Sequence record: PQ850618.1
Reading direction: 5' to 3' (one strand)
Length of the DNA: 64,000 nucleotides
DNA from: Escherichia phage ManiWeber_Bas99
Below the pieces are notes generated by a model, which was not told the origin of the DNA, made no database searches, and saw only the letters and a program-made list of their open reading frames with translations. Shown piece by piece: positions 2,049 through 63,789 of this stretch; position 1 is the stretch's first letter; each line of letters opens with the position of its first letter. A program made the position numbers and the translations under genes.

Positions 2049-2222
2049 AGAGGAAGTTATGCAAAAGATTATTCAGTCACGTTATGTTAAAGTGCGAAAT
2101 ATTAATTGCAACTCTTTGCTTTCTTGGAAATGGGCTGTTTATGACTCGATGTTGATTGGCGTTTTAGTGGCAGGAGTGCTATTTAATATTCACTGAATTC
2201 ATCGGCAAAGGATTGCCGAGAG

Positions 2223-23519: not shown

Positions 23520-24164
23520 ATGATTAATGCAAACGTAATATCTAAAGGGACCGGATGCAGCATGGATGTTGCTGAAAAATGGGTCGACCCCTTCAAGCAG
23601 GCTTGTGAGCACTACGGAATCAAAAGCAAGAATGCCATCGCGGCGCTGCTTGCAAACGTAGGAGTGGAAACAGGCAGTCTGAAGACCTTTGTGGAAAACC
23701 TGAATTATTCCGCTCAAGGTCTTGCTAATACGTGGCCTAGCCGTTACAGCGCCAGCGGTCGTTTCGGTGGCGCACCAAACTCCTTGGCATTGTCGATTGC
23801 CCGTAAACCAATGGAAATCGCCAATAATACATATGCAAACCGAATGGGAAATGATTCGGTAGCATCTGGCGACGGTTGGAAGTACCGTGGCCGTGGTGCC
23901 ATTCAGCTGACTGGAAAGGCTAACTATGCAGAGTATTCAAAACAATCAGGGTATGACGCATTGAATAACCCTGACATTTTGACTGAGCCGAAATACATCG
24001 CTGACAGCGCGGCGTGGTTCTTCAAGAACAGCGGTTGCATTCCACTTGCCGATGCGGGTGCATTTGATTCGACCGTGAAGCGGATTAACGGGGCCGCGCC
24101 GAATACGGCCAACCACGGGGATTTGCGACGGAAGCGTTACAAGGATGCACTAGCAGTTATGTAA
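23520..24164 (+). CDS. Endolysin, glycoside hydrolase family 19 (chitinase-like)
   Basis: 214 aa; motifs ...VGVETGSL... and ...YRGRGAIQLTGKANY... match GH19 lysozyme-like endolysins. Confidence 0.6.
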   Translation: MINANVISKGTGCSMDVAEKWVDPFKQACEHYGIKSKNAIAALLANVGVETGSLKTFVENLNYSAQGLANTWPSRYSASGRFGGAPNSLALSIARKPMEIANNTYANRMGNDSVASGDGWKYRGRGAIQLTGKANYAEYSKQSGYDALNNPDILTEPKYIADSAAWFFKNSGCIPLADAGAFDSTVKRINGAAPNTANHGDLRRKRYKDALAVM

Positions 24165-24167
24165 GAA

Positions 24168-24192
24168 AAAGGCCCATATGGGCCTTTGTTTA
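24168..24192. terminator. Bidirectional rho-independent terminator
   Basis: AAAAAGGCCCATATGGGCCTTTGTTTATTTT: palindromic GC stem with A-run upstream and T-run downstream, between convergent genes. Confidence 0.6.
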
Positions 24193-24420
24193 TTTTACGG
24201 CTTCAACCTGGACGGGTGGCGCGGAACTTGTATCAATGTCTGGCAAGTCGAAGTAATACCCCGCCATGCCAATCACGCCAACAATCGCGGCCCGTGCCAC
24301 CTTGTTGCTAATTGACTCCCCAATAAGCTTTACCAACAGGGACAAGATTTGAGACGTCAAAGCCTTTTTCAGCCTTTTGTTTTCTTCCAAATCTTTCTGC
24401 ATAACTACCACCCATGTCAA
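24190..24420 (-). CDS. Small membrane protein (weak holin candidate)
   Basis: 76 aa; TTG start; one hydrophobic segment AAIVGVIGMAGYYF; convergent with the endolysin gene. Confidence 0.3.
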   Translation of the reverse strand: MTWVVVMQKDLEENKRLKKALTSQILSLLVKLIGESISNKVARAAIVGVIGMAGYYFDLPDIDTSSAPPVQVEAVK

Positions 24421-24959
24421 CGCACATCCTGTGTCTTAACATTACCTGAAGCATCTCTTAAGGGCAGTGGATAGTAGGCCATTTGGTAGTCTGATACGCC
24501 TTCAACATGATAAAACACGATTACGTCTTTGCTGTTGATGAGCATGTTAACGACATCTGATTTATCTTCTGGAGTGAGTATGAGTGCGCCGCCTGTCCTG
24601 CTGTCTACTGCAACAGGGTATGTCTTGTCGACAAGGCCGCTGTCCAATGTATTATACCTGACAACGATTTCAGCGGCATCAACTTTTGCAATTGACATTC
24701 CGAACACAAACGAAACGACTTGGCGACCGCGATCATTCATTACGCACATCTTTTCCTTATCAAACCTTTCCTTTATCACATCATATTTGTTCCAGCAAAA
24801 TTCGAACGATTGGCCGTTGTTAAAATATCTCGTTAACACTTTGGCATTACTATTTGGTGGCGTAAACATACTTTCAGCCGCTGCACTTTTGGTGAAGAAC
24901 AAGACTGTCAGCATAGCCATGATGGTGATCAAAACAATCTTTAAAGTTTTCGATTTCAT
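24417..24959 (-). CDS. Secreted/periplasmic protein
   Basis: 180 aa; N-terminal signal peptide MKSKTLKIVLITIMAMLTVLFFTKSAAA. Confidence 0.4.
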   Translation of the reverse strand: MKSKTLKIVLITIMAMLTVLFFTKSAAAESMFTPPNSNAKVLTRYFNNGQSFEFCWNKYDVIKERFDKEKMCVMNDRGRQVVSFVFGMSIAKVDAAEIVVRYNTLDSGLVDKTYPVAVDSRTGGALILTPEDKSDVVNMLINSKDVIVFYHVEGVSDYQMAYYPLPLRDASGNVKTQDVR

Positions 24960-25039
24960 TATAATTCACCTTTTGATTACGAATATTAATAGTATAGGCC
25001 GAAGGTTTTGAAAGTAAATAAGGCGAAAGGTAAATAAAA

Positions 25040-25064
25040 GAAAAGCCGGAGATTTCCGGCTTTA
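25040..25064 (-). terminator. Rho-independent terminator (likely bidirectional)
   Basis: AAAAGCCGGAGATTTCCGGCTTTAT hairpin with flanking A/T runs, downstream of the ligase gene. Confidence 0.55.
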
Positions 25065-25135: not shown

Positions 25136-26098
25136 TTAAAAATACTCCATATCGGTAATATCACGGAAGCATTTATACAAAGCAGAGCGCGGCACGTCGA
25201 CGATGCCAAAGTTAAAGAATTTATACGTTAGGTATTTATCGCGATAGTTCTCGCGATTCTCCCAAAGCATTTTACGCTCTGCCATAGGCATTGAACCAGC
25301 GGAGACGCGGAAAGGAATCATTTCACCTTTCTCATCCACATATTTTGGATTGACGACTACGAATGAGCCAAGGCATCCTTTCGCAACTAAACCTTCAGCC
25401 TCTTTTGAACGTTTGGTGCGACCCAATTCGTCAATGAATGCTTCGTTGTTGTTCTCCATCATCTCAACGAAGTCTATGATCAACCCTTCTTCATCGGTCC
25501 ACGGCTTGTCCTTCCACACATCACGTGACTTCGGCGTCGCGCGCCCATGCTTATATTTGCCCGTCCAAGACTTGCCATACAAGCCTTCATATCCAAGCTG
25601 GTCTGCTTCGATTTGCATCGCCGCGTACTGTTCCATATTTTCGATGTTTCGATATTCGAGAGCGCGAAGGAATGGGCGTCGACCATGGTTGATGAGATGT
25701 TGATTAACTTCAGCAACTCTAGCTCGATAGTTTGCATAACGCTTTTCAAAAGGCAGATCAGGGTCGCTGAAGTCATCAAACACCCACCATGTAAAGTTAG
25801 TGATTGCATCAGTATTCATGCATGCAGTATAGGCCTGTTGCATGACGTTCTTATCATTTGGATTGCCGTCGATTAGCTCTCCATCAAGTCCGTGAATTAG
25901 TTCACCCAAAAAGAGGAACTCTTTTTTGATTTGAACGTTGCGCAACGGCATGCCGGAAGTGCCCATTGGCAAGTTGTCATACGCCATTGCACGTATGCCA
26001 TCGACCTTGAATGACAGTCCGCAAGGCAGCGGCACGTCCTCGCCGCGCTCGATAATCTGCTTACGTTGGCAACCCTTCATTGGTTTTAATGCTGTCAT
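25136..26098 (-). CDS. ATP-dependent DNA ligase
   Basis: 320 aa; nucleotidyltransferase motif I KVDGIR, motif III LDGELI, motif IV-like EGLYGK. Confidence 0.7.
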   Translation of the reverse strand: MTALKPMKGCQRKQIIERGEDVPLPCGLSFKVDGIRAMAYDNLPMGTSGMPLRNVQIKKEFLFLGELIHGLDGELIDGNPNDKNVMQQAYTACMNTDAITNFTWWVFDDFSDPDLPFEKRYANYRARVAEVNQHLINHGRRPFLRALEYRNIENMEQYAAMQIEADQLGYEGLYGKSWTGKYKHGRATPKSRDVWKDKPWTDEEGLIIDFVEMMENNNEAFIDELGRTKRSKEAEGLVAKGCLGSFVVVNPKYVDEKGEMIPFRVSAGSMPMAERKMLWENRENYRDKYLTYKFFNFGIVDVPRSALYKCFRDITDMEYF

Positions 26099-26100
26099 AA

Positions 26101-26724
26101 TTATTGTCCTGTAACTTCTCTGATCACACGGTCTTCAAGTTCCAGCTTCTTTACCATTTTGCAGGAGTGCTCATAAGCCTGATCAGTCGATTTGATGAAT
26201 GTGCCGTTGTACATGACACCTTTTCGGTCTTTAATGTCTTCGTAGGCAGCTTGCGCACAGTCGGATAAGCGAAGGCCATAATCATGAGCTACGCCGGAAA
26301 GGTAATCGACTGCGGCCATGATGGTCACGTCAATATCCATGGTCTGATTCTTAGCGATTGCATCACCAAGTCGTCCAAGGGTCTTTGCCAGGCGAAGGAT
26401 AAATGAATGAGGGTGAGCACCTTTATCAGCGCAACCGCCGCCATTAATGTTTTCGATTTCAGTACCGTTTTGCGCTGCCAGGATGGTCAACACAACAAGG
26501 CAATCGCCGATGTCATCCTTAATTGCGGCCTGCAAGTCACAGATGGCCTGCTCTGTATATCCAATTTCAGGGTCAAAGAACACAAGGTCATGTAATTGAT
26601 CAACGTGGTCTGTCAACTCCCCAAACTCGCTAATAAGCTTCGGGTATTGGTCCTTAAGGTCGCAGCCTTGGATGATGTTACGGTCAGAAGCCCACTGGCG
26701 AATGTTTGCATAAATCTGGTTCAT
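26101..26724 (-). CDS. MazG-like nucleoside triphosphate pyrophosphohydrolase
   Basis: 207 aa; EFGELTDH and DIGDCLVVLTILA motifs typical of all-alpha MazG-family NTP-PPases. Confidence 0.5.
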   Translation of the reverse strand: MNQIYANIRQWASDRNIIQGCDLKDQYPKLISEFGELTDHVDQLHDLVFFDPEIGYTEQAICDLQAAIKDDIGDCLVVLTILAAQNGTEIENINGGGCADKGAHPHSFILRLAKTLGRLGDAIAKNQTMDIDVTIMAAVDYLSGVAHDYGLRLSDCAQAAYEDIKDRKGVMYNGTFIKSTDQAYEHSCKMVKKLELEDRVIREVTGQ

Positions 26725-27239
26725 TTATTTTCCTTTGATGCATTGAATTGATCGATTTTAATTTTAGCCTGATTATAAGTATCAATCAAGCTATTAACTT
26801 TCTCTTTTAATCGATTTGTTTCTGCGGCGAACTGAACAAGAAATCTGACATCCTCTTCTGATAGTCCACAGTTTCCTTCTGGGATAGAGAGGCGTCCAGT
26901 GGTCGCAGAGTCGGGCACACTCCTGAGTAACTCACGGGAGCAGCTGAGTTGCTCGCGCAACTTGACATTCCCAGACTTGTAACGAGCAATAGTGCCATCA
27001 GCAACCAGTTGCGCTTCCTGGCGACCCTTCTCATATGCCGATGCCGATTCAACCTGTAAAGTTGCAATTTGCTCTTCGAGTGCATTTATCTTGTCCTTAC
27101 GCTCATTAAGCGATGTCAGATATTGATTATACTTGGCCAGTGATGCGTTGGTTTGCTGCAGGTCTTCAACGTATGATCCAGCGGCAAACGCGCCAACAAG
27201 GGCCAGAATCTTCAGGAGCGGTACAATTCTTTCTATCAT
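26721..27239 (-). CDS. i-spanin (Rz-like)
   Basis: 172 aa; N-terminal transmembrane helix, central coiled coil, Rz-like C-terminal region; contains an embedded out-of-frame ORF. Confidence 0.55.
   Translation of the reverse strand: MIERIVPLLKILALVGAFAAGSYVEDLQQTNASLAKYNQYLTSLNERKDKINALEEQIATLQVESASAYEKGRQEAQLVADGTIARYKSGNVKLREQLSCSRELLRSVPDSATTGRLSIPEGNCGLSEEDVRFLVQFAAETNRLKEKVNSLIDTYNQAKIKIDQFNASKENK
26807..27034 (-). CDS. o-spanin (Rz1-like) embedded in the i-spanin gene
   Basis: Alternate frame wholly inside 26721-27239; from an internal Met: MRRVARKRNWLLMALLLVTSLGMSSC..., a signal-like helix with Cys (imperfect lipobox), Pro-containing mature part. Confidence 0.4.
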   Translation of the reverse strand: MRRVARKRNWLLMALLLVTSLGMSSCASNSAAPVSYSGVCPTLRPLDASLSQKETVDYQKRMSDFLFSSPQKQID

Positions 27240-27254
27240 GATGCACCAGATAAA

Positions 27255-27283
27255 TAAAAGGCCGCCAATCGGCAGCCTTGTTG
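27255..27283 (-). terminator. Rho-independent terminator (minus strand)
   Basis: Minus-strand reading AAGGCTGCCGATTGGCGGCCTTTTATTT: hairpin plus T-run after the SSB-like gene. Confidence 0.5.
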
Positions 27284-28216: not shown

Positions 28217-28774
28217 TTACTTTTTGCTTTTAGGCAAGGTTATTTTAGCTTCTTTGTATTCAAAAACGCTAATATCTTCACTAACTGGATTGCCCGCTTC
28301 CAGCTGTTCTTTTACAAACGACTTCAGTGTAGCAGAATGAACGCCTTGTTTCAACGTGGCTTCAACACCATCTTCACGCAGCGCGGCAACAATCTCTTGC
28401 GCCTGTTCGATTTCTTCGCGACCGAACTCAGCCGTGACGCTGGACTTGATCAAGCCGCCGTAACCGTTGTTGACAAGCCAATCGAAAACTTTTAATTCGT
28501 TTTCTTTCTTGATTGAAGCGTTCACCTTGGACTCGACCTTGATTTTGGTCTTGTCCTCAAGCTTGATTTCGGACACGCCAAGCTCATCCATAACGCCAGG
28601 AAGCAGAACAGTTTTGATTTCACTGATTCGCTGCTTTTGCATATCAGCTTCATCTTCAAGCTCTGTCAAAGCTTCTTGGCGTTCTGCCAGTTCAGATACT
28701 AAGCGCGCAAGGCGCTCTTGAATGCTCTCAGGAGCGACCTGCGGCAAATCATCTTCCCAATTAATATTGCTCAT
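28217..28774 (-). CDS. Hypothetical replication/recombination-associated protein
   Basis: 185 aa, coiled-coil-rich; coupled to neighbours. Confidence 0.3.
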   Translation of the reverse strand: MSNINWEDDLPQVAPESIQERLARLVSELAERQEALTELEDEADMQKQRISEIKTVLLPGVMDELGVSEIKLEDKTKIKVESKVNASIKKENELKVFDWLVNNGYGGLIKSSVTAEFGREEIEQAQEIVAALREDGVEATLKQGVHSATLKSFVKEQLEAGNPVSEDISVFEYKEAKITLPKSKK

Positions 28775-60219: not shown

Positions 60220-62553
60220 TTATTTCGCTGCTTTTAGCGCGGCTATCTCTGCCTCTAGTGACTCGACCTTCTTCATCAACTCCTGCACCACGTGCATCGT
60301 ATCCAAAAGCATAGGTGTTGTGTCAAGTTCTTTTTGTTCAACAATTTCTCCTGGATTGCTGCCAATATACTTACGCGTCTTAACATATAAAGGCTCAACG
60401 ACCTCTGCTTGCTGTGCAATAATGCCATGCCGAACTCGATTTTGTTCGTCATTGTCATAAATGAACTCTACAAATTCCAGTCCTTTAATATTAGAGTATG
60501 ATTTATCAACTCCAACAGGGGCGATGCCGTGTTTTACACGTGAGTCAGAAGTGCCATTTTTTGTATAACTGAAGTTACCGTAATCGGTTGAACCATATAT
60601 TTGACCATCAATGTCAAAAAAGTAACGGCAAAATTTTCCGTTATCTCCACCGATTACCACGCAAGCTATGCCGAATGCATCATTACCTGGTAAATACATA
60701 TGGTATCCAACCTTGGTTGGGTATCCATTAGGTTTGGTGGCACCGATAGAATAGCCGCGCACCAGCGTATCTGATCCACTCGCGATTGCCACCCTGTCCA
60801 TTCCGTTAGTGGTCAAGTTAGATACAGCGGCATCCGTTATTCCATTCCATGTGCCTAAAGGCGTATACATGCGGAATGGGTTGGTCTTCCCTGACTGTCG
60901 AAAGTCAACGGTGCCATCTTCATAGAATTTATAAGCGTGCTTGGAAGAACCCTCCGCCTCTACGACGGCAAAACTAGAAGAACCCCATGAAGAACTTGAG
61001 TACAGACGTGCAAACTGTGATGAACTAGGATTGCTATATTTTGACTCTACTTTGCCGCCGACAACCAATGTGCCTGCCACTGGTGCGCTTGAGTCTGCAT
61101 TTATTACGCTCCAAGACGTATTCGCAGCAACAAATCCACCCGATGCACGAATCACCCAAACGCCAACGAAGTTACGCGGAACAATTTCCGCTGCTGAACG
61201 GCCATAAACAGGACTGCAGCGAGAGGCGTCAAAGTTTGTTTGTATGAATCTTGACCCAGAGCCTGCTGCCGCAGGAGAGTCACCCGAAGTTATTGACTGA
61301 AAAGCACCATTAGTTGCCACTTGGCTTGGCAAAGAAGCCAATGTCACCATTGTGTGCGGCGCTGTGTAAGTTATATTTGGAGCGCCTGATTCAGACACAA
61401 CCCCGTTGGATGATGAATTCCCACCGTCACCCCTGCCGAATAAGGCCTGTATGGAACCAGTCTGCACCCCGTTGCGGTCTGGCACACGGAATGTCGTTGT
61501 TCCGTTACCCAGAGAATACTTGCCGCGTTTTGCTGGGTTGGCAAGCCAGTCAGCATCGGCAATAGGGGAAAGCATTTGCGCATAAGCCCACAGTTCAGGC
61601 CAGTCCGCACGGTTGAGTAACTGTCCGTCGGAGACAACTTCATACGGCTGAATGTATGCGCGACTGTCGCGCAGGTGAAAATCACCAACGCCATAGTTCA
61701 TAACACCGTTCATGCTTGGGCCAACGGTGCCTGTGTTAACTAAGTTTTCGACCCAACGCTTAGTTGCAGCATCGTAATCATTCACAGGGTCGCCAGCCAG
61801 CGGAGTTGACCCTTGTGGACGAATATTTAGCCAAGCTTGAGCATTGTCTGCTGAGCCAGTACCGCCCATGGAAGTCGGGACAATGTTTTGATCAGCGACT
61901 GCGCCAAATCCAAAAGCGGACTTCATACCCTGAATGGTAGTTTGCCCTGTGCCGCCGTTGGCGACTGGAATTATATCGCCACTCGTGAAAAACTTGCGCC
62001 ATTCTGTCCATCCACTTACAGAATCATATGTCCTGGTATAGTGAAATGGGAGGTTGTACGCTCTGTATATTTGCACGCAACCTTCTATCGAGTTAGCCTT
62101 TGTTTGCTGGACTTCCAACACGCCTGCACTATCAACAGGATAATTCAGGGCCGTGCTTGCCGCTGAGCTTATCGGTTGGGAATACTGTCCAAACCATGAA
62201 CCAGTCAAGGCATTAAGGTTGATGCCTGAAGGAATCTCTCCAAAATTTCGCACAGTATTGGTCAAGGATGCGGCAGTAGTTCGAATGGAAAGCATGTCAC
62301 CAGCCGCCCATGCACGCGCTGCAGTCCCTTCCTGTGCACGCTGAACGGTCAGGACATCACCAACGACAGCTGTTACTGTGACGATTTCGAATTGGAGGCC
62401 TGTTGCAGCGTCGACGATTGTCGCCACTACACGCTCGTTTGCGCCCAAGGTCGGAAAGCCTGACCCTGAGCGAATTGTGATTGTGGTGTCTGAAGTCGTC
62501 GTTGGTTGAGCCAGCGCGACCTCAAAGTTGTTTTTGAATATTAGCCTTGGCAT
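60220..62553 (-). CDS. Tail fibre/spike with C-terminal intramolecular chaperone (S74-like) domain
   Basis: 777 aa; fibre-like N-terminus; C-terminal ...GTSDSRVKHGIAPV... resembles the autoproteolytic Ser-Asp-x-Arg-x-Lys site of S74 chaperone domains, then a coiled-coil tail. Confidence 0.6.
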   Translation of the reverse strand: MPRLIFKNNFEVALAQPTTTSDTTITIRSGSGFPTLGANERVVATIVDAATGLQFEIVTVTAVVGDVLTVQRAQEGTAARAWAAGDMLSIRTTAASLTNTVRNFGEIPSGINLNALTGSWFGQYSQPISSAASTALNYPVDSAGVLEVQQTKANSIEGCVQIYRAYNLPFHYTRTYDSVSGWTEWRKFFTSGDIIPVANGGTGQTTIQGMKSAFGFGAVADQNIVPTSMGGTGSADNAQAWLNIRPQGSTPLAGDPVNDYDAATKRWVENLVNTGTVGPSMNGVMNYGVGDFHLRDSRAYIQPYEVVSDGQLLNRADWPELWAYAQMLSPIADADWLANPAKRGKYSLGNGTTTFRVPDRNGVQTGSIQALFGRGDGGNSSSNGVVSESGAPNITYTAPHTMVTLASLPSQVATNGAFQSITSGDSPAAAGSGSRFIQTNFDASRCSPVYGRSAAEIVPRNFVGVWVIRASGGFVAANTSWSVINADSSAPVAGTLVVGGKVESKYSNPSSSQFARLYSSSSWGSSSFAVVEAEGSSKHAYKFYEDGTVDFRQSGKTNPFRMYTPLGTWNGITDAAVSNLTTNGMDRVAIASGSDTLVRGYSIGATKPNGYPTKVGYHMYLPGNDAFGIACVVIGGDNGKFCRYFFDIDGQIYGSTDYGNFSYTKNGTSDSRVKHGIAPVGVDKSYSNIKGLEFVEFIYDNDEQNRVRHGIIAQQAEVVEPLYVKTRKYIGSNPGEIVEQKELDTTPMLLDTMHVVQELMKKVESLEAEIAALKAAK

Positions 62554-62591: not shown

Positions 62592-63140
62592 TTAATTTCT
62601 TTTGAGAGGAATATGACGGTTGCTGTCATTATTTGGTTTAATAATGAGCATAAAAACGATTAGAAAGATGATGGCTGATATACTTAATTCAATCAGCGCG
62701 CCTTGAGATATAGATTGATCTTCATGATATTGCTTTTGCATTTCCGCTTTCTTCTGAGCGCAAACTTCAGGCGATATATAATCGCCTTTTGAGTTGCCAT
62801 AATAAATCTCGCCATTCTCAGAAATCAGCCTGCCGCAAATATCCGTTTCAGCCTTTGCACTTGACATCATAATAACGGTGCCGATGATAGCGGCGATAGT
62901 CCAGATTAACAGTTGTGATAAAGTGTTGTTCATGATAACCTCTTTAAATTCCCTTCCCATTTCGGGAAGGGTGATAATTATTTTACGCGAAAGAATAGGC
63001 GCGTGCCACACAGCGAGTCCCAACGGCCTTCGCCATCCCATACCGACCCAATGCCAGCGGTGATGACACCAGCAGAATTGGCGGCATTGGCCCAGGCGAG
63101 TCGTTTCAGCTTCCAACTGCACCAACGATTCACAGTTCAT
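62592..63140 (-). CDS. Membrane-anchored/secreted small protein (start probably internal)
   Basis: Internal MNNTLSQLLIWTIAAIIGTVIMMSSAKA signal/anchor sequence. Confidence 0.3.
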   Translation of the reverse strand: MNCESLVQLEAETTRLGQCRQFCWCHHRWHWVGMGWRRPLGLAVWHAPILSRKIIITLPEMGREFKEVIMNNTLSQLLIWTIAAIIGTVIMMSSAKAETDICGRLISENGEIYYGNSKGDYISPEVCAQKKAEMQKQYHEDQSISQGALIELSISAIIFLIVFMLIIKPNNDSNRHIPLKRN

Positions 63141-63393
63141 CTCCAGACTTCAAAATTAATCCCGCATAGATTATTGCCAAAGCTAAAGGCGCACCGCCGC
63201 CAGCCTCTCTATTCTCTTTGATTTGAAGAGTATCTTTTAGGAATTGAAGCTGAACGTTGAATTCATTTTCAATTCCAAGCACTCCGGCTAATTCTTTTAC
63301 AGAATCTGCATATGCCTTGTCTAGCACTTCTTTTGGCACCGTTAAGGTTAATTCATTTGCCATTTTCTTTCCACTCCACAAATGTGCTGTCAC
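63130..63393 (-). CDS. Hypothetical protein
   Basis: 87 aa ORF. Confidence 0.3.
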   Translation of the reverse strand: MTAHLWSGKKMANELTLTVPKEVLDKAYADSVKELAGVLGIENEFNVQLQFLKDTLQIKENREAGGGAPLALAIIYAGLILKSGDEL

Positions 63394-63574
63394 TTGTTTC
63401 TCTATTTAGCAGGTATCTGCCGCGCATTCCACGAAGGCTGAACTCAACCGTCGATGGATTAGATTTTGAAAGCCACATCACTTGACCGTCGAACGGTCCG
63501 CCAACGCATGTGTATTTGGCCTTTGGCTCACTCCTTTTGGGCCGTTTTGGCCGCTCTTTGATTGATAGTCTCAT
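63353..63574 (-). CDS. Hypothetical basic protein
   Basis: 73 aa ORF. Confidence 0.25.
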   Translation of the reverse strand: MRLSIKERPKRPKRSEPKAKYTCVGGPFDGQVMWLSKSNPSTVEFSLRGMRGRYLLNRETSDSTFVEWKENGK

Positions 63575-63789
63575 CAGTCTTCACCTTGAGATTCCAGACA
63601 AGTAAGGACAAGCCAAGTCATCGGAAGAATCAAAACCAGAGAAATGAGGGACCAGATAGACCAACACAAGATGACAGACTTGAATGTGTGAACGTCGCCA
63701 AACGCAGCAGCGAAACAAAATCCCATTACGAAAGCAATCGCTGTGGAGTGATTATCAATGGCTTTGATGGCGCGGTCGATGAGTTTCAT
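63574..63789 (-). CDS. Small two-transmembrane protein (holin-like)
   Basis: 71 aa; two hydrophobic segments (TAIAFVMGFCFAAAF; ILCWSIWSLISLVLILPMTWLVL) and a charged C-terminus. Confidence 0.3.
   Translation of the reverse strand: MKLIDRAIKAIDNHSTAIAFVMGFCFAAAFGDVHTFKSVILCWSIWSLISLVLILPMTWLVLTCLESQGED

What the first reader, a model, noticed from the sequence alone, without database searches (positions are those of the whole stretch)
26721..27239. Embedded two-component spanin pair located away from the endolysin
The Rz-like gene contains a complete alternate-frame ORF with a signal-like helix and cysteines, the classic Rz/Rz1 embedded arrangement. The pair is about 2.5 kb from the endolysin, on the opposite strand, inside the ligase/MazG operon. 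No canonical holin lies next to the endolysin. Lysis functions therefore seem dispersed; candidate holins are 24190-24420 and 63574-63789.
Basis: partly seen in the sequence, partly recalled or inferred. Interest (0 to 1): 0.4.

Follow-up and report, generated by a model that had tools for sequence, protein, structure and literature searches.

The report
Known embedded spanin pair in coliphage
The flagged gene and the small gene nested inside it are a genuine two-part "spanin" that breaks the bacterial outer membrane at the end of infection, but it is already annotated in sister phages and catalogued in the literature, so it is ordinary.

Summary
The window is a Wifcevirus, a PB1-like E. coli myophage, 98% identical in DNA to vB_EcoM_WFC.

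**What is there**
- ORF 26721-27239 (-) encodes a 172-aa Rz-like i-spanin: an N-terminal membrane helix followed by helix, linker, helix.
- Its +1 frame holds ORF 26807-27085 (-), a lipoprotein precursor with lipobox G-M-S-S-C. The mature product is 50 aa.

**Is the nested ORF real?**
- Openness alone is not significant (P about 0.1).
- A lipoprotein-like +1 ORF arose in only 15 of 2000 synonymous permutations.
- The nested frame matches the nested ORFs of distant spanin genes (PY54, LIET2, Alexa, P744, MQ-4) at z = 11-17.
- In relatives of 61-65% identity, i-frame third positions diverge about half as much inside the overlap as outside.

**Context**
- The pair lies 2.56 kb from the GH19 endolysin, on the opposite strand.
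- Its stop overlaps the mazG start (ATGA), and the ligase gene follows.

**Novelty:** none. Mansfield and the BASEL phages Bas98/100/101 annotate both genes. Kongari et al. 2018 list ECML-117 as an embedded pair.

**Side points**
- The slot upstream of mazG holds different membrane proteins in related genera.
- No holin is identifiable. The two proposed candidates stay unproven, and the first is weak.

The parts
26721..27239 (-). i-spanin gene (172 aa, Rz-like): N-terminal TMD, long periplasmic helix, linker, second helix; Cys100 and Cys124
   Evidence: ORF. phrog_1327 'Rz-like spanin' E = 4e-27. tblastn to the PY54 Rz-like spanin, E = 9e-13. AF2 model: helix 5-106, linker 107-127, helix 128-171, mean pLDDT 75. 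Cysteine positions.
27171..27227 (-). Codons for the N-terminal transmembrane helix of the i-spanin (about residues 5-23)
   Evidence: Kyte-Doolittle 19-residue window scores 1.75 at residues 1-19. Residues 11-24 are nearly invariant in relatives of 61-65% identity.
26807..27085 (-). o-spanin gene, fully embedded in the +1 frame of the i-spanin. Long precursor 92 aa; a second conserved in-frame ATG at 27034 gives a 75-aa precursor. Mature lipoprotein 50 aa.
   Evidence: Annotated 'o-spanin' at the same position in Mansfield and Bas101. Kongari 2018 supplement gives the 75-aa form for ECML-117. Dual-coding tests. Start-codon analysis.
26957..26968 (-). Lipobox codons M-S-S-C. The Cys becomes residue +1 of the mature lipoprotein. 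Residue +2 is Ala, not Asp, so outer-membrane sorting by Lol is expected.
   Evidence: Fits {DERK}(6)-[LIVMFWSTAG](2)-[LIVMFYSTAGCQ]-[AGS]-C. S-x-C is invariant in the seven-sequence alignment. The motif is ISSC or ISGC in relatives and MSGC in Acinetobacter phage Alexa. The sorting rule is established knowledge and was not tested here.
27094..27098 (-). Shine-Dalgarno-like AAGGA, 8 nt upstream of the o-spanin ATG at 27085
   Evidence: Sequence. The same AAGGA-8 nt-ATG occurs in relatives L014-L016. The i-frame codon spanning the ATG varies N/Y/H/D, all NAT codons, so the ATG is preserved. Mansfield annotates an RBS here.
27250..27279 (-). Intrinsic-terminator-like hairpin (9 bp, loop GAUU) plus U-tract, ending about 12 nt before the i-spanin ATG
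   Evidence: Scan. RNA fold -15.9 kcal/mol, z = -3.6. An equivalent hairpin occurs in L014, L015 and L016, with changed stem sequence in L014. Annotated as a terminator in Mansfield.
26101..26724 (-). MazG-like pyrophosphatase gene; its ATG overlaps the i-spanin stop (ATGA)
   Evidence: phrog_1992 E = 2e-62; sequence.
25136..26098 (-). ATP-dependent DNA ligase gene, last gene of the unit; terminator-like site at 25042-25063 (-)
   Evidence: phrog_114 E = 3.5e-42; terminator scan.
23520..24164 (+). Endolysin (GH19 type, no N-terminal SAR or TMD), last gene of the tail-fibre operon. A bidirectional terminator-like hairpin lies at 24168-24187.
   Evidence: phrog_181 E = 4e-68. Pfam Glyco_hydro_19 scores 31.3 bits against a cutoff of 25.5. 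Terminator scan.
24190..24402 (-). Function unknown.
   Evidence: phrog_5165 E = 2e-8. Homologues in 325 phage records, 289 of them from Pseudomonas phages (PB1-like in every row listed), all listed rows 'hypothetical' or unannotated. Sits beside the endolysin in PaGU11 and in L014-L016. No TMD at the Kyte-Doolittle threshold.
63574..63789 (-). Function unknown.
   Evidence: TMDs at residues 15-33 and 39-57. No Pfam, PHROG or NCBIfam family. Found only in Wifcevirus-like phages.

Best explanation
The locus encodes a two-component spanin of the embedded (lambda Rz/Rz1-like) architecture.

**Components.**
- The outer gene makes an i-spanin. This is a type II inner-membrane protein with one N-terminal TMD. 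Its periplasmic part is a long helix, a flexible linker of about 20 residues, and a second helix.
- The +1 frame of the same DNA makes an o-spanin precursor. Signal peptidase II is expected to cleave it before Cys (G-M-S-S|C). The Cys is lipidated, and because residue +2 is Ala the Lol system should send the 50-aa product to the inner leaflet of the outer membrane.

**Mechanism, inferred from lambda.** The C-terminal parts of the two proteins bind across the periplasm. Conserved cysteines (i-spanin C100 and C124; mature o-spanin C15) make covalent homodimers. The complex stays caged by peptidoglycan until the GH19 endolysin, released by a holin not yet identified, removes the wall. The complex then collapses and fuses the inner and outer membranes, which completes lysis.

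**Expression, inferred from sequence.** The pair is the first cistron of a spanin-mazG-ligase unit, translationally coupled to mazG. It sits directly after a conserved terminator-like hairpin. Early or low-level synthesis is tolerable because spanins do nothing until the wall is gone.

**Shown versus inferred.** Shown here: gene anatomy, selection on both frames, family relationships and synteny. Inferred: processing, localisation, complex formation, membrane fusion and timing.
For: **Family and architecture.**
- phrog_1327 Rz-like spanin, E = 4e-27.
- AF2 gives a helix-linker-helix architecture.
- N-terminal TMD predicted.

**The nested ORF is a lipoprotein gene.**
- It carries a PROSITE-type lipobox.
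- It is the only credible lipoprotein in the 64 kb.
- A lipoprotein-like +1 ORF arose in 15 of 2000 synonymous permutations.

**Conservation of the nested frame.**
- Its similarity to the nested ORFs of PY54, LIET2, Alexa, P744 and MQ-4 gives z = 11-17, with 0 of 400 permutations reaching the observed score for any of them.
- tblastn identity to the distant phages is 44-52% for the o-frame and 27-47% for the i-frame.
- Invariant in the o-spanin alignment: S-x-C lipobox, Cys-Pro, and D..M..FLF.
- In the i-spanin alignment, GN..L and G..D..FL are invariant. The cysteine aligned with C100 is kept in five of the six sequences, and the one aligned with C124 likewise; Alexa is the exception for both.

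**Homologues sit in lysis cassettes.** In PY54 and Alexa the homologous gene is the third gene of a holin-endolysin-Rz cassette.

**Intermediate relatives.** Three metagenomic relatives (61-65% identity) keep the same synteny and an embedded ISGC/ISSC lipoprotein ORF.

**Dual-coding substitution pattern.** I-frame third positions differ at 22-36% inside the overlap and at 53-62% outside it. Fisher P = 7e-6, 4e-5 and 1e-3.

**Intactness.** The ORF is intact in all 28 Wifcevirus records.

**Independent annotation.** Mansfield annotates i-spanin and o-spanin, as do the BASEL phages. Kongari 2018 lists ECML-117 as an embedded pair.
Against: - There is no experimental evidence for this phage group. 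None of the papers I checked describes its lysis genes.
- Pfam and NCBIfam give no spanin hit for either protein.
- The o-spanin matches a PHROG spanin family only weakly (phrog_4306, E = 0.0014-0.008).
- ORF openness alone is not significant (P about 0.1).
- This window has Met at lipobox position -3, which is uncommon, and no dedicated SPII predictor was available.
- If the SD-preceded ATG at 27085 is used, the signal peptide would be an unusually long 42 residues.
- The mature o-spanin has only 4 prolines in 50 residues. From memory, lambda Rz1 is markedly proline-rich.
- The terminator-like hairpin immediately upstream leaves the source of transcription unclear.
Confidence: 0.9

Rival explanations
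1. Only the outer gene is expressed. The nested ORF is an untranslated by-product of a coiled-coil gene whose +1 frame happens to be open.
For: The +1 frame of this gene stays open for at least 92 codons in about 10% of synonymous resamplings. Pfam has no hit for the nested product.
Against: The lipoprotein signal is rare under permutation, 15 of 2000. Cross-genus conservation of the nested frame gives z = 11-17. Invariant lipobox and Cys-Pro. Halved third-position divergence in the overlap. The ATG is kept while the overlapping i-frame residue changes N/Y/H/D.
Confidence: 0.02
2. The pair is a real membrane complex, but it serves something other than lysis. It would work with the replication and nucleotide-metabolism genes it is transcribed with, for example as an envelope tether or in superinfection exclusion.
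For: It lies in the mazG-ligase unit, not beside the endolysin. In Pbunavirus, Bcepfunavirus and Myosmarvirus the same slot holds a membrane protein of unknown function, phrog_1544.
Against: Homologues in PY54 and Alexa sit in classical holin-endolysin-Rz cassettes. The architecture meets every sequence-level criterion for spanins. T4 also keeps its spanins away from its holin and endolysin (PMC6139136). The window has no other spanin candidate, and Pbunavirus gp07 has no homologue here.
Confidence: 0.04
3. The pair is a functional spanin but is dispensable. Another, unrecognised outer-membrane disruptor, such as a disruptin-type cationic peptide, does the work in this phage.
For: Many small ORFs of unknown function remain, including several small membrane proteins at 62592-63789. 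Disruptin systems exist in phages that lack spanins (bioRxiv 10.1101/515445, abstract listed).
Against: Purifying selection acts on both frames over 61-65% protein divergence. This argues that the pair is in use. No candidate disruptin was identified.
Confidence: 0.05

Closest known systems
Escherichia phage Mansfield CPT_Mansfield_057/058 (i-spanin/o-spanin); ECML-117 embedded spanin pair (Kongari et al. 2018, PMC6139136); BASEL phages Bas98/100/101 'Rz-like spanin' and 'o-spanin'
   Same: These are the same genes. The i-spanin is 95-99% identical and the o-spanin 92-99% identical, with the same position between the Pam3_Gp34-like gene and mazG and the same embedding.
   Different: Point differences only. 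This window has lipobox MSSC where Mansfield and Bas101 have ISSC. Annotations disagree on the o-spanin start: 92 aa in Mansfield and BASEL, 75 aa in Kongari.
Yersinia phage PY54 ORF63 Rz-like spanin with embedded o-spanin; related pairs in Acinetobacter phage Alexa, Pantoea phage LIET2, Yersinia phage P744 and Serratia phage MQ-4
   Same: Detectable homology in both frames: i-spanin E = 9e-13 at 28% identity, o-spanin E = 2e-9 at 52% identity. All are embedded in the +1 frame. They share the lipobox S-x-C, Cys-Pro and FLF motifs, and i-spanin cysteines that align in most members.
   Different: PY54 and Alexa keep the pair in a holin-endolysin-spanin cassette. Here it sits in a replication-gene unit. 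Their signal peptides are short (14-19 aa) and their lipobox is ISGC or MSGC. Kongari 2018 lists PY54 and ECML-117 as separate singleton families. The searches here link them.
Lambda Rz/Rz1
   Same: Embedded +1 architecture. Type II i-spanin with helix-linker-helix periplasmic domain. Small lipoprotein o-spanin. Periplasmic cysteines in both subunits. The mechanism (periplasm-spanning complex, membrane fusion after wall removal) is presumed the same.
   Different: No sequence-family membership: Pfam gives no hit for either protein. The pair is not next to a holin or the endolysin. The mature o-spanin here is 50 aa with 4 prolines. From memory, lambda Rz1 is shorter and markedly proline-rich.
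T4 PseT.3/PseT.2 spanins
   Same: The spanin genes lie far from the holin and endolysin, in a large virulent myophage (PMC6139136 Fig. 8 legend).
   Different: The T4 genes are separated, not embedded. I did not test sequence similarity to them.
Pbunavirus (PB1) u-spanin, e.g. PaGU11 gp07
   Same: It is the outer-membrane disruption device of the nearest large phage genus, and it is also dispersed from the endolysin.
   Different: It is a single polypeptide with an AWAC lipobox and a C-terminal TMD. It has no homologue in this window or in the Mansfield and Bas101 sequence held here. Wifcevirus uses an unrelated two-component system.

Membership tests
Two-component spanin (functional class, criteria of Summer 2007 / Kongari 2018) | i-spanin: one N-terminal TMD (N-in, C-out) and a mostly alpha-helical or coiled-coil periplasmic domain | tested here: met
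   Kyte-Doolittle TMD at the N-terminus. AF2 gives helix 5-106, linker, helix 128-171. Kongari's supplement records one coiled-coil segment for the ECML-117 i-spanin. Topology itself was not measured.
Two-component spanin (functional class) | o-spanin: small protein with an SPII signal and a lipobox Cys; residue +2 compatible with outer-membrane sorting | tested here: met
   PROSITE-type lipobox pattern matched, with +2 = Ala. The lipobox is invariant across seven homologues. LipoP and SignalP were not available.
Two-component spanin (functional class) | o-spanin gene embedded in, overlapping or adjacent to the i-spanin gene | tested here: met
   Fully embedded in the +1 frame, at nt 154-433 of the 519-nt outer gene.
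Two-component spanin (functional class) | Periplasmic cysteines available for intermolecular disulfides | tested here: met
   i-spanin C100 and C124; o-spanin precursor C40, which is mature C15. The o-spanin Cys-Pro is invariant. The cysteine aligned with C100 is present in five of six aligned i-spanins, and the one aligned with C124 likewise. Disulfide formation was not tested.
Two-component spanin (functional class) | Required for outer-membrane disruption; complements lambda Rz/Rz1 defects | not testable with these tools
   Needs genetics.
Lambda Rz / Rz1 sequence families (Pfam Phage_lysis and Rz1 models) | Significant match to the Pfam models | tested here: not met
   No spanin-related Pfam hit at E <= 0.1 for either protein. 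NCBIfam also gives none.
PHROG 1327 (Rz-like spanin) / PY54-type spanin family | Significant sequence similarity of the i-spanin, with a homologous embedded o-spanin | tested here: met
   phrog_1327 E = 4e-27. tblastn to PY54 gives E = 9e-13 for the i-spanin and 2e-9 for the o-spanin. Permutation z = 15 for the PY54 nested frame.
Unimolecular spanin (T1 gp11 / PB1 type) | [quoted passage not shown] | tested here: not met
   No such ORF in the window. No homologue of PaGU11 gp07.

The most novel reading that the evidence does not exclude
The spanin pair itself is known. The most novel reading left open concerns its surroundings.

**A replaceable slot.** The position between the Pam3_Gp34-like gene and mazG may be a replaceable envelope-gene slot across the PB1-like supergroup.
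- Wifcevirus: an embedded PY54-type spanin.
- Xanthomonas phage Carpasina: a separated spanin of unrelated sequence.
- Pbunavirus, Bcepfunavirus and Myosmarvirus: phrog_1544.

If so, the uncharacterised phrog_1544 protein would itself be a lysis protein, either a holin or a new outer-membrane disruptor. It has a Gly-rich N-terminus, a coiled coil and two C-terminal TMDs, and it resembles GTA_holin_3TM below threshold.

**An unrecognised holin.** Wifcevirus, which lacks both phrog_1544 and the Pbunavirus 2-TMD/u-spanin cluster, might time lysis with a holin of no recognised family. One possibility is the phrog_5165 protein that stays beside the endolysin even where the endolysin type has been swapped.
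Probability: 0.2. Interest if true: 0.45.

Novelty: already known. Interest (0 to 1): 0.12.

Why it matters
It matters little beyond correct annotation.

- Many Wifcevirus records still call one or both genes 'hypothetical protein': WFC and WFH (GenBank versions), FEC19, vB_Eco4M-7, AV128, EC150, RCIP0319 and others. RefSeq versions name only the outer gene. These phages are used or proposed for E. coli O157 biocontrol, so a complete lysis-gene inventory has some practical value.
- The comparative side result is a tidy example of spanin modules exchanged at one genomic position. Three unrelated envelope-protein solutions occupy the same slot in related genera. The ECML-117 and PY54 'singleton' families also turn out to be linked.
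- The result also shows that the holin of this phage group is still unidentified.

Tried and rejected
**Searches that gave nothing useful**
- Pfam and NCBIfam gave no informative family for the i-spanin, the o-spanin or either holin candidate.
- ORF length as evidence for the nested gene was rejected as non-significant.
- The Mansfield announcement and the vB_Eco4M-7 paper say nothing about holins or spanins.
- No holin is annotated in Mansfield 1-47 kb or Bas101 37-69 kb.

**Holin leads that failed**
- The Mansfield genes between terminase and portal are soluble proteins. Pbunavirus keeps a 2-TMD protein and its u-spanin at that position.
- tblastn of PaGU11 gp01-gp16, including u-spanin gp07 and 2-TMD gp09, found no homologue in the window, Mansfield or Bas101.
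- tblastn of PaGU11 gp50 (phrog_1544) found no homologue in the window.
- A search of the 5.8-billion-protein database with the 71-aa 2-TMD candidate returned only two Wifcevirus-like clusters, both unnamed.

**Ideas tested and rejected**
- That the spanin occupies the position of the Pbunavirus u-spanin. The protein labelled 'u-spanin' in phage JJ01 (ORF85, PMC9583000) sits, by gene order, where PaGU11 has gp52. PaGU11 gp52 and its window homologue (28217-28774) are soluble, with no signal or TMD. The real u-spanin is gp07, elsewhere in the genome.
- That Carpasina's spanins in the same slot are homologous to these. BLASTP finds no alignment.
Full report
**Identity of the window.** The 2.2 kb around the finding matches 28 phage records at 92-98% DNA identity. 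All are Wifcevirus or ECML-117-like E. coli and Shigella myophages, and the best match is vB_EcoM_WFC at 98.0%. These phages are described as PB1-like (PMC6753283).

**The observation.**
- ORF 26721-27239 (-) encodes 172 aa.
- ORF 26807-27085 (-) encodes 92 aa and lies wholly inside it in the +1 frame.
- The outer protein matches phrog_1327 'Rz-like spanin' at E = 4e-27.
- It has an N-terminal hydrophobic helix.
- An AlphaFold2 model built on five sequences (mean pLDDT 75) has one long helix 5-106, an unstructured linker 107-127 and a second helix 128-171. This is the architecture expected of an i-spanin.
- The nested product reads MHSKSKLQLYRLNRHRHMRRVARKRNWLLMALLLVTSLGMSSC|ASNSAAPVSYSGVCPTLRPLDASLSQKETVDYQKRMSDFLFSSPQKQID. 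It has a basic n-region, a hydrophobic core and a lipobox that fits the PROSITE-type pattern. Ala sits at +2, and a second Cys lies 14 residues into the mature part.
- The endolysin (GH19; phrog_181 E = 4e-68) is at 23520-24164 (+), 2.56 kb away on the other strand.
- The i-spanin stop overlaps the mazG start (ATGA), and the ligase gene follows.

**Is the nested ORF more than chance?**

*Length alone says no.* When the codons of the outer gene are resampled synonymously, the +1 frame stays open for at least 92 codons in about 10% of trials. The other tests are decisive.

1. A +1 ORF with a lipoprotein-type signal arises in 15 of 2000 permutations.
2. tblastn with the nested protein finds nested ORFs inside Rz-like genes of five distant phages:
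   - Yersinia PY54: 52% identity, E = 2e-9.
   - Pantoea LIET2.
   - Acinetobacter Alexa.
   - Yersinia P744.
   - Serratia MQ-4.

   The outer protein matches the same genes at 27-47% identity.
3. I permuted synonymous codons independently in both members of each pair. The observed +1-frame alignment scores (108-144) exceed every one of 400 permutations, z = 11-17.
4. In the seven-sequence o-spanin alignment several features are invariant: the lipobox S-x-C, a Cys-Pro, and a C-terminal D-x4-M-x2-F-L-F motif.
5. In the i-spanin alignment GN..L and G..D..FL are invariant. The cysteine aligned with C100 is present in five of six sequences, and the one aligned with C124 likewise; Alexa is the exception for both.
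6. A search of the 5.8-billion-protein collection found three metagenomic relatives at 61-65% identity. Their contigs show the same gene order: helicase, DUF7307 protein, Pam3_Gp34-like gene, i-spanin, mazG-like gene, ligase, a 180-aa protein, a 73-90-aa protein, then the endolysin converging. Each carries an embedded ORF with lipobox ISGC or ISSC.
7. In codon alignments with these relatives, the i-frame third position differs at 53-62% of codons outside the overlap. Inside the overlap it differs at only 22-36%, because there it is the second codon position of the nested frame. Fisher P = 7e-6, 4e-5 and 1e-3. This is the expected mark of two frames under selection.
8. The nested ORF is intact in all 28 Wifcevirus records.

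**Start of the o-spanin.** Two in-frame ATGs are conserved.
- *ATG 27085 (92-aa precursor).* It has AAGGA 8 nt upstream in the window and in all three diverged relatives. The i-frame codon that spans it encodes N, Y, H or D in different phages. All four are NAT codons followed by G, so the ATG is kept while the i-spanin residue changes. Mansfield and BASEL annotate this start.
- *ATG 27034 (75-aa precursor).* This gives a conventional 25-residue signal. It matches the ORF openings of PY54 and LIET2 and is the form used by Kongari et al. for ECML-117.

Both give the same mature 50-aa lipoprotein. Which one is used cannot be settled from sequence.

**Mechanism.** This part rests on established knowledge of lambda Rz/Rz1 and on Kongari et al. 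2018 (PMC6139136). It is not a test done here.
- The i-spanin is anchored in the inner membrane.
- The o-spanin is lipidated and sorted to the outer membrane.
- Their C-terminal regions bind across the periplasm, and disulfide-linked homodimers form.
- After the endolysin removes the peptidoglycan, the complex fuses the two membranes.

All sequence-level criteria for this class are met. Function, processing and timing remain inferred.

**Family placement.** It is not a member of the lambda Rz or Rz1 sequence families, since Pfam and NCBIfam give nothing. It belongs with the PY54-type pairs. In PY54 and Alexa these are the third gene of a holin-endolysin-spanin cassette, which ties the family to lysis.

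**Context and expression.**
- A 9-bp GC-rich hairpin with a U-tract lies at 27250-27279 (-) and ends about 12 nt before the i-spanin ATG.
- The hairpin is present in all three diverged relatives. In L014 the stem sequence differs but the structure is kept. Folding energies are -15.9 to -18.8 kcal/mol with z about -3.2 to -3.6.
- No sigma-70-like promoter was found between the hairpin and the ATG. The spanin-mazG-ligase unit is therefore probably transcribed by read-through or from a phage-specific signal. This is inference.
- A second terminator-like site at 25042-25063 (-) closes the unit.

**Why here?**

*Synteny with other genera.* PaGU11 (Pbunavirus) has the order gp52, gp51 (Pam3_Gp34-like), gp50, MazG, ligase, gp47, then the endolysin converging. 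Every one of these except gp50 has a homologue at the corresponding window position. The spanin pair sits exactly where gp50 would be.

*What fills the slot elsewhere.*
- gp50 (phrog_1544) is a 201-aa protein without cysteine. It has a Gly-rich N-terminus, a coiled coil and two C-terminal hydrophobic segments. Its match to GTA_holin_3TM is below threshold (E = 0.016 against a 24.8-bit cutoff).
- The same protein type fills the slot in Burkholderia phage BCSR52 and Serratia phage Spe5P4.
- In Xanthomonas phage Carpasina the slot holds two genes. One is a membrane and coiled-coil protein (gp38). The other is a separate lipoprotein with lipobox TVGC (gp37; phrog_11951 'Rz-like spanin', E = 1e-20). 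Together they form a separated two-component spanin with no detectable similarity to the pair here.

*Lysis genes in Pbunavirus.* Pbunavirus has its u-spanin (PaGU11 gp07: lipobox AWAC, C-terminal TMD) and a 2-TMD protein (gp09) between the terminase and portal genes. Neither has a homologue in the window, Mansfield or Bas101. Dispersed lysis genes are therefore the rule in this supergroup. The slot upstream of mazG has been refilled with unrelated envelope proteins more than once.

**Holin question.**
- The endolysin has no N-terminal SAR or TMD, so a holin is expected.
- None is annotated in the relatives examined.

*Candidate 1: 24190-24420 (the Mansfield start corresponds to 24402).*
- It belongs to phrog_5165.
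- Its only hydrophobic stretch is about 16 residues long and falls below my Kyte-Doolittle threshold.
- Its position beside the endolysin is conserved in Pbunavirus. It is also conserved in L014 and L015, where the GH19 enzyme has been replaced by a phrog_90-type lysozyme.

*Candidate 2: 63574-63789.*
- It has two clear TMDs.
- It ends in the acidic sequence ESQGED.
- It lies in a run of small genes upstream of a tail-fibre gene.
- It has no homologues outside Wifcevirus-like phages.

Neither candidate can be confirmed or excluded with these tools.

**Comparison with what is known, and verdict.**
- The same two genes are annotated as i-spanin and o-spanin in phage Mansfield.
- They are annotated as 'Rz-like spanin' and 'o-spanin' in BASEL phages Bas98, Bas100 and Bas101.
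- The ECML-117 pair is listed, with coordinates and sequences, among embedded two-component spanins in Kongari et al. 2018.

The finding is real and correctly interpreted, but it is already known.

Small additions from this work:
- The ECML-117 and PY54 'singleton' families of that catalogue are homologous in both frames.
- The o-spanin has two conserved candidate starts.
- The genomic position is a recurrently refilled slot.

Interest is low.

Noticed in passing
window 26721-27239; compare L010 2563-3168, L011 5408-6010, L012 5438-6043, L013 5442-6369: The slot between the Pam3_Gp34-like gene and mazG holds unrelated envelope proteins in related genera. Wifcevirus has an embedded PY54-type spanin. 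Xanthomonas phage Carpasina has a separated i-/o-spanin pair. Pbunavirus, Bcepfunavirus and Myosmarvirus have phrog_1544, which has a Gly-rich N-terminus, a coiled coil, two C-terminal TMDs and a sub-threshold match to GTA_holin_3TM.
   Followed up: partly
window 28217-28774 (-); L010 889-1521: By gene order, phage JJ01 ORF85, labelled 'u-spanin' (PMC9583000), sits where PaGU11 has gp52. PaGU11 gp52 and its window homologue are soluble coiled-coil proteins with no signal or TMD, so the label looks wrong. The JJ01 sequence itself was not read. The real PB1-type u-spanin in PaGU11 is gp07 (lipobox AWAC, C-terminal TMD; L017 3035-3433).
   Followed up: partly
L014 8065-8520, L015 8078-8530, versus window 23520-24164 and L016 8136-8780: Two metagenomic relatives have a 150-aa phrog_90-type lysozyme where the window and L016 have the GH19 endolysin. 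The flanking genes are conserved. This is an in-place swap of endolysin type.
   Followed up: partly
window 27250-27279 (-): A terminator-like hairpin with a U-tract ends about 12 nt before the i-spanin start codon. It is conserved in relatives of 61-65% protein identity, and in L014 the stem sequence is changed while the structure is kept. How the spanin-mazG-ligase unit is transcribed is therefore unclear.
   Followed up: partly
window 24417-24959 (-): A 180-aa protein with an N-terminal signal peptide (…TKSAAA|ES) and no family match. It lies between the ligase gene and the small phrog_5165 gene. It is present in L014-L016, and a gene of similar size sits at the same place in Spe5P4. PaGU11 lacks it. 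There is a promoter-like site at 24991-25018 (-).
   Followed up: no
window 62592-63789 (-): A run of small genes lies upstream of the tail-fibre gene (60220-62553), and several encode membrane proteins. 63574-63789 has two TMDs. 63130-63363 has a hydrophobic C-terminal tail. 62592-62933 has an N-terminal signal-like helix, a two-Cys periplasmic part, a C-terminal TMD and a basic tail. None has a family match. Any of them could be the missing holin or antiholin.
   Followed up: partly
window 24190-24402 (-): The small phrog_5165 protein has homologues in 325 phage records, 289 of them from Pseudomonas phages (PB1-like in every row listed). It stays beside the endolysin even where the endolysin type differs. 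Every listed record calls it hypothetical or is unannotated.
   Followed up: partly
window 2059-2196 (+): A 45-aa ORF with a C-terminal hydrophobic helix sits in the head-morphogenesis block. It corresponds in position and length to CPT_Mansfield_027. Function unknown.
   Followed up: no
Kongari et al. 2018 family tables (PMC6139136): ECML-117 and PY54 are listed as separate singleton families for both i- and o-spanins. Here they are clearly homologous in both frames (tblastn E = 9e-13 and 2e-9). LIET2, Alexa, P744 and MQ-4 join the same family.
   Followed up: yes
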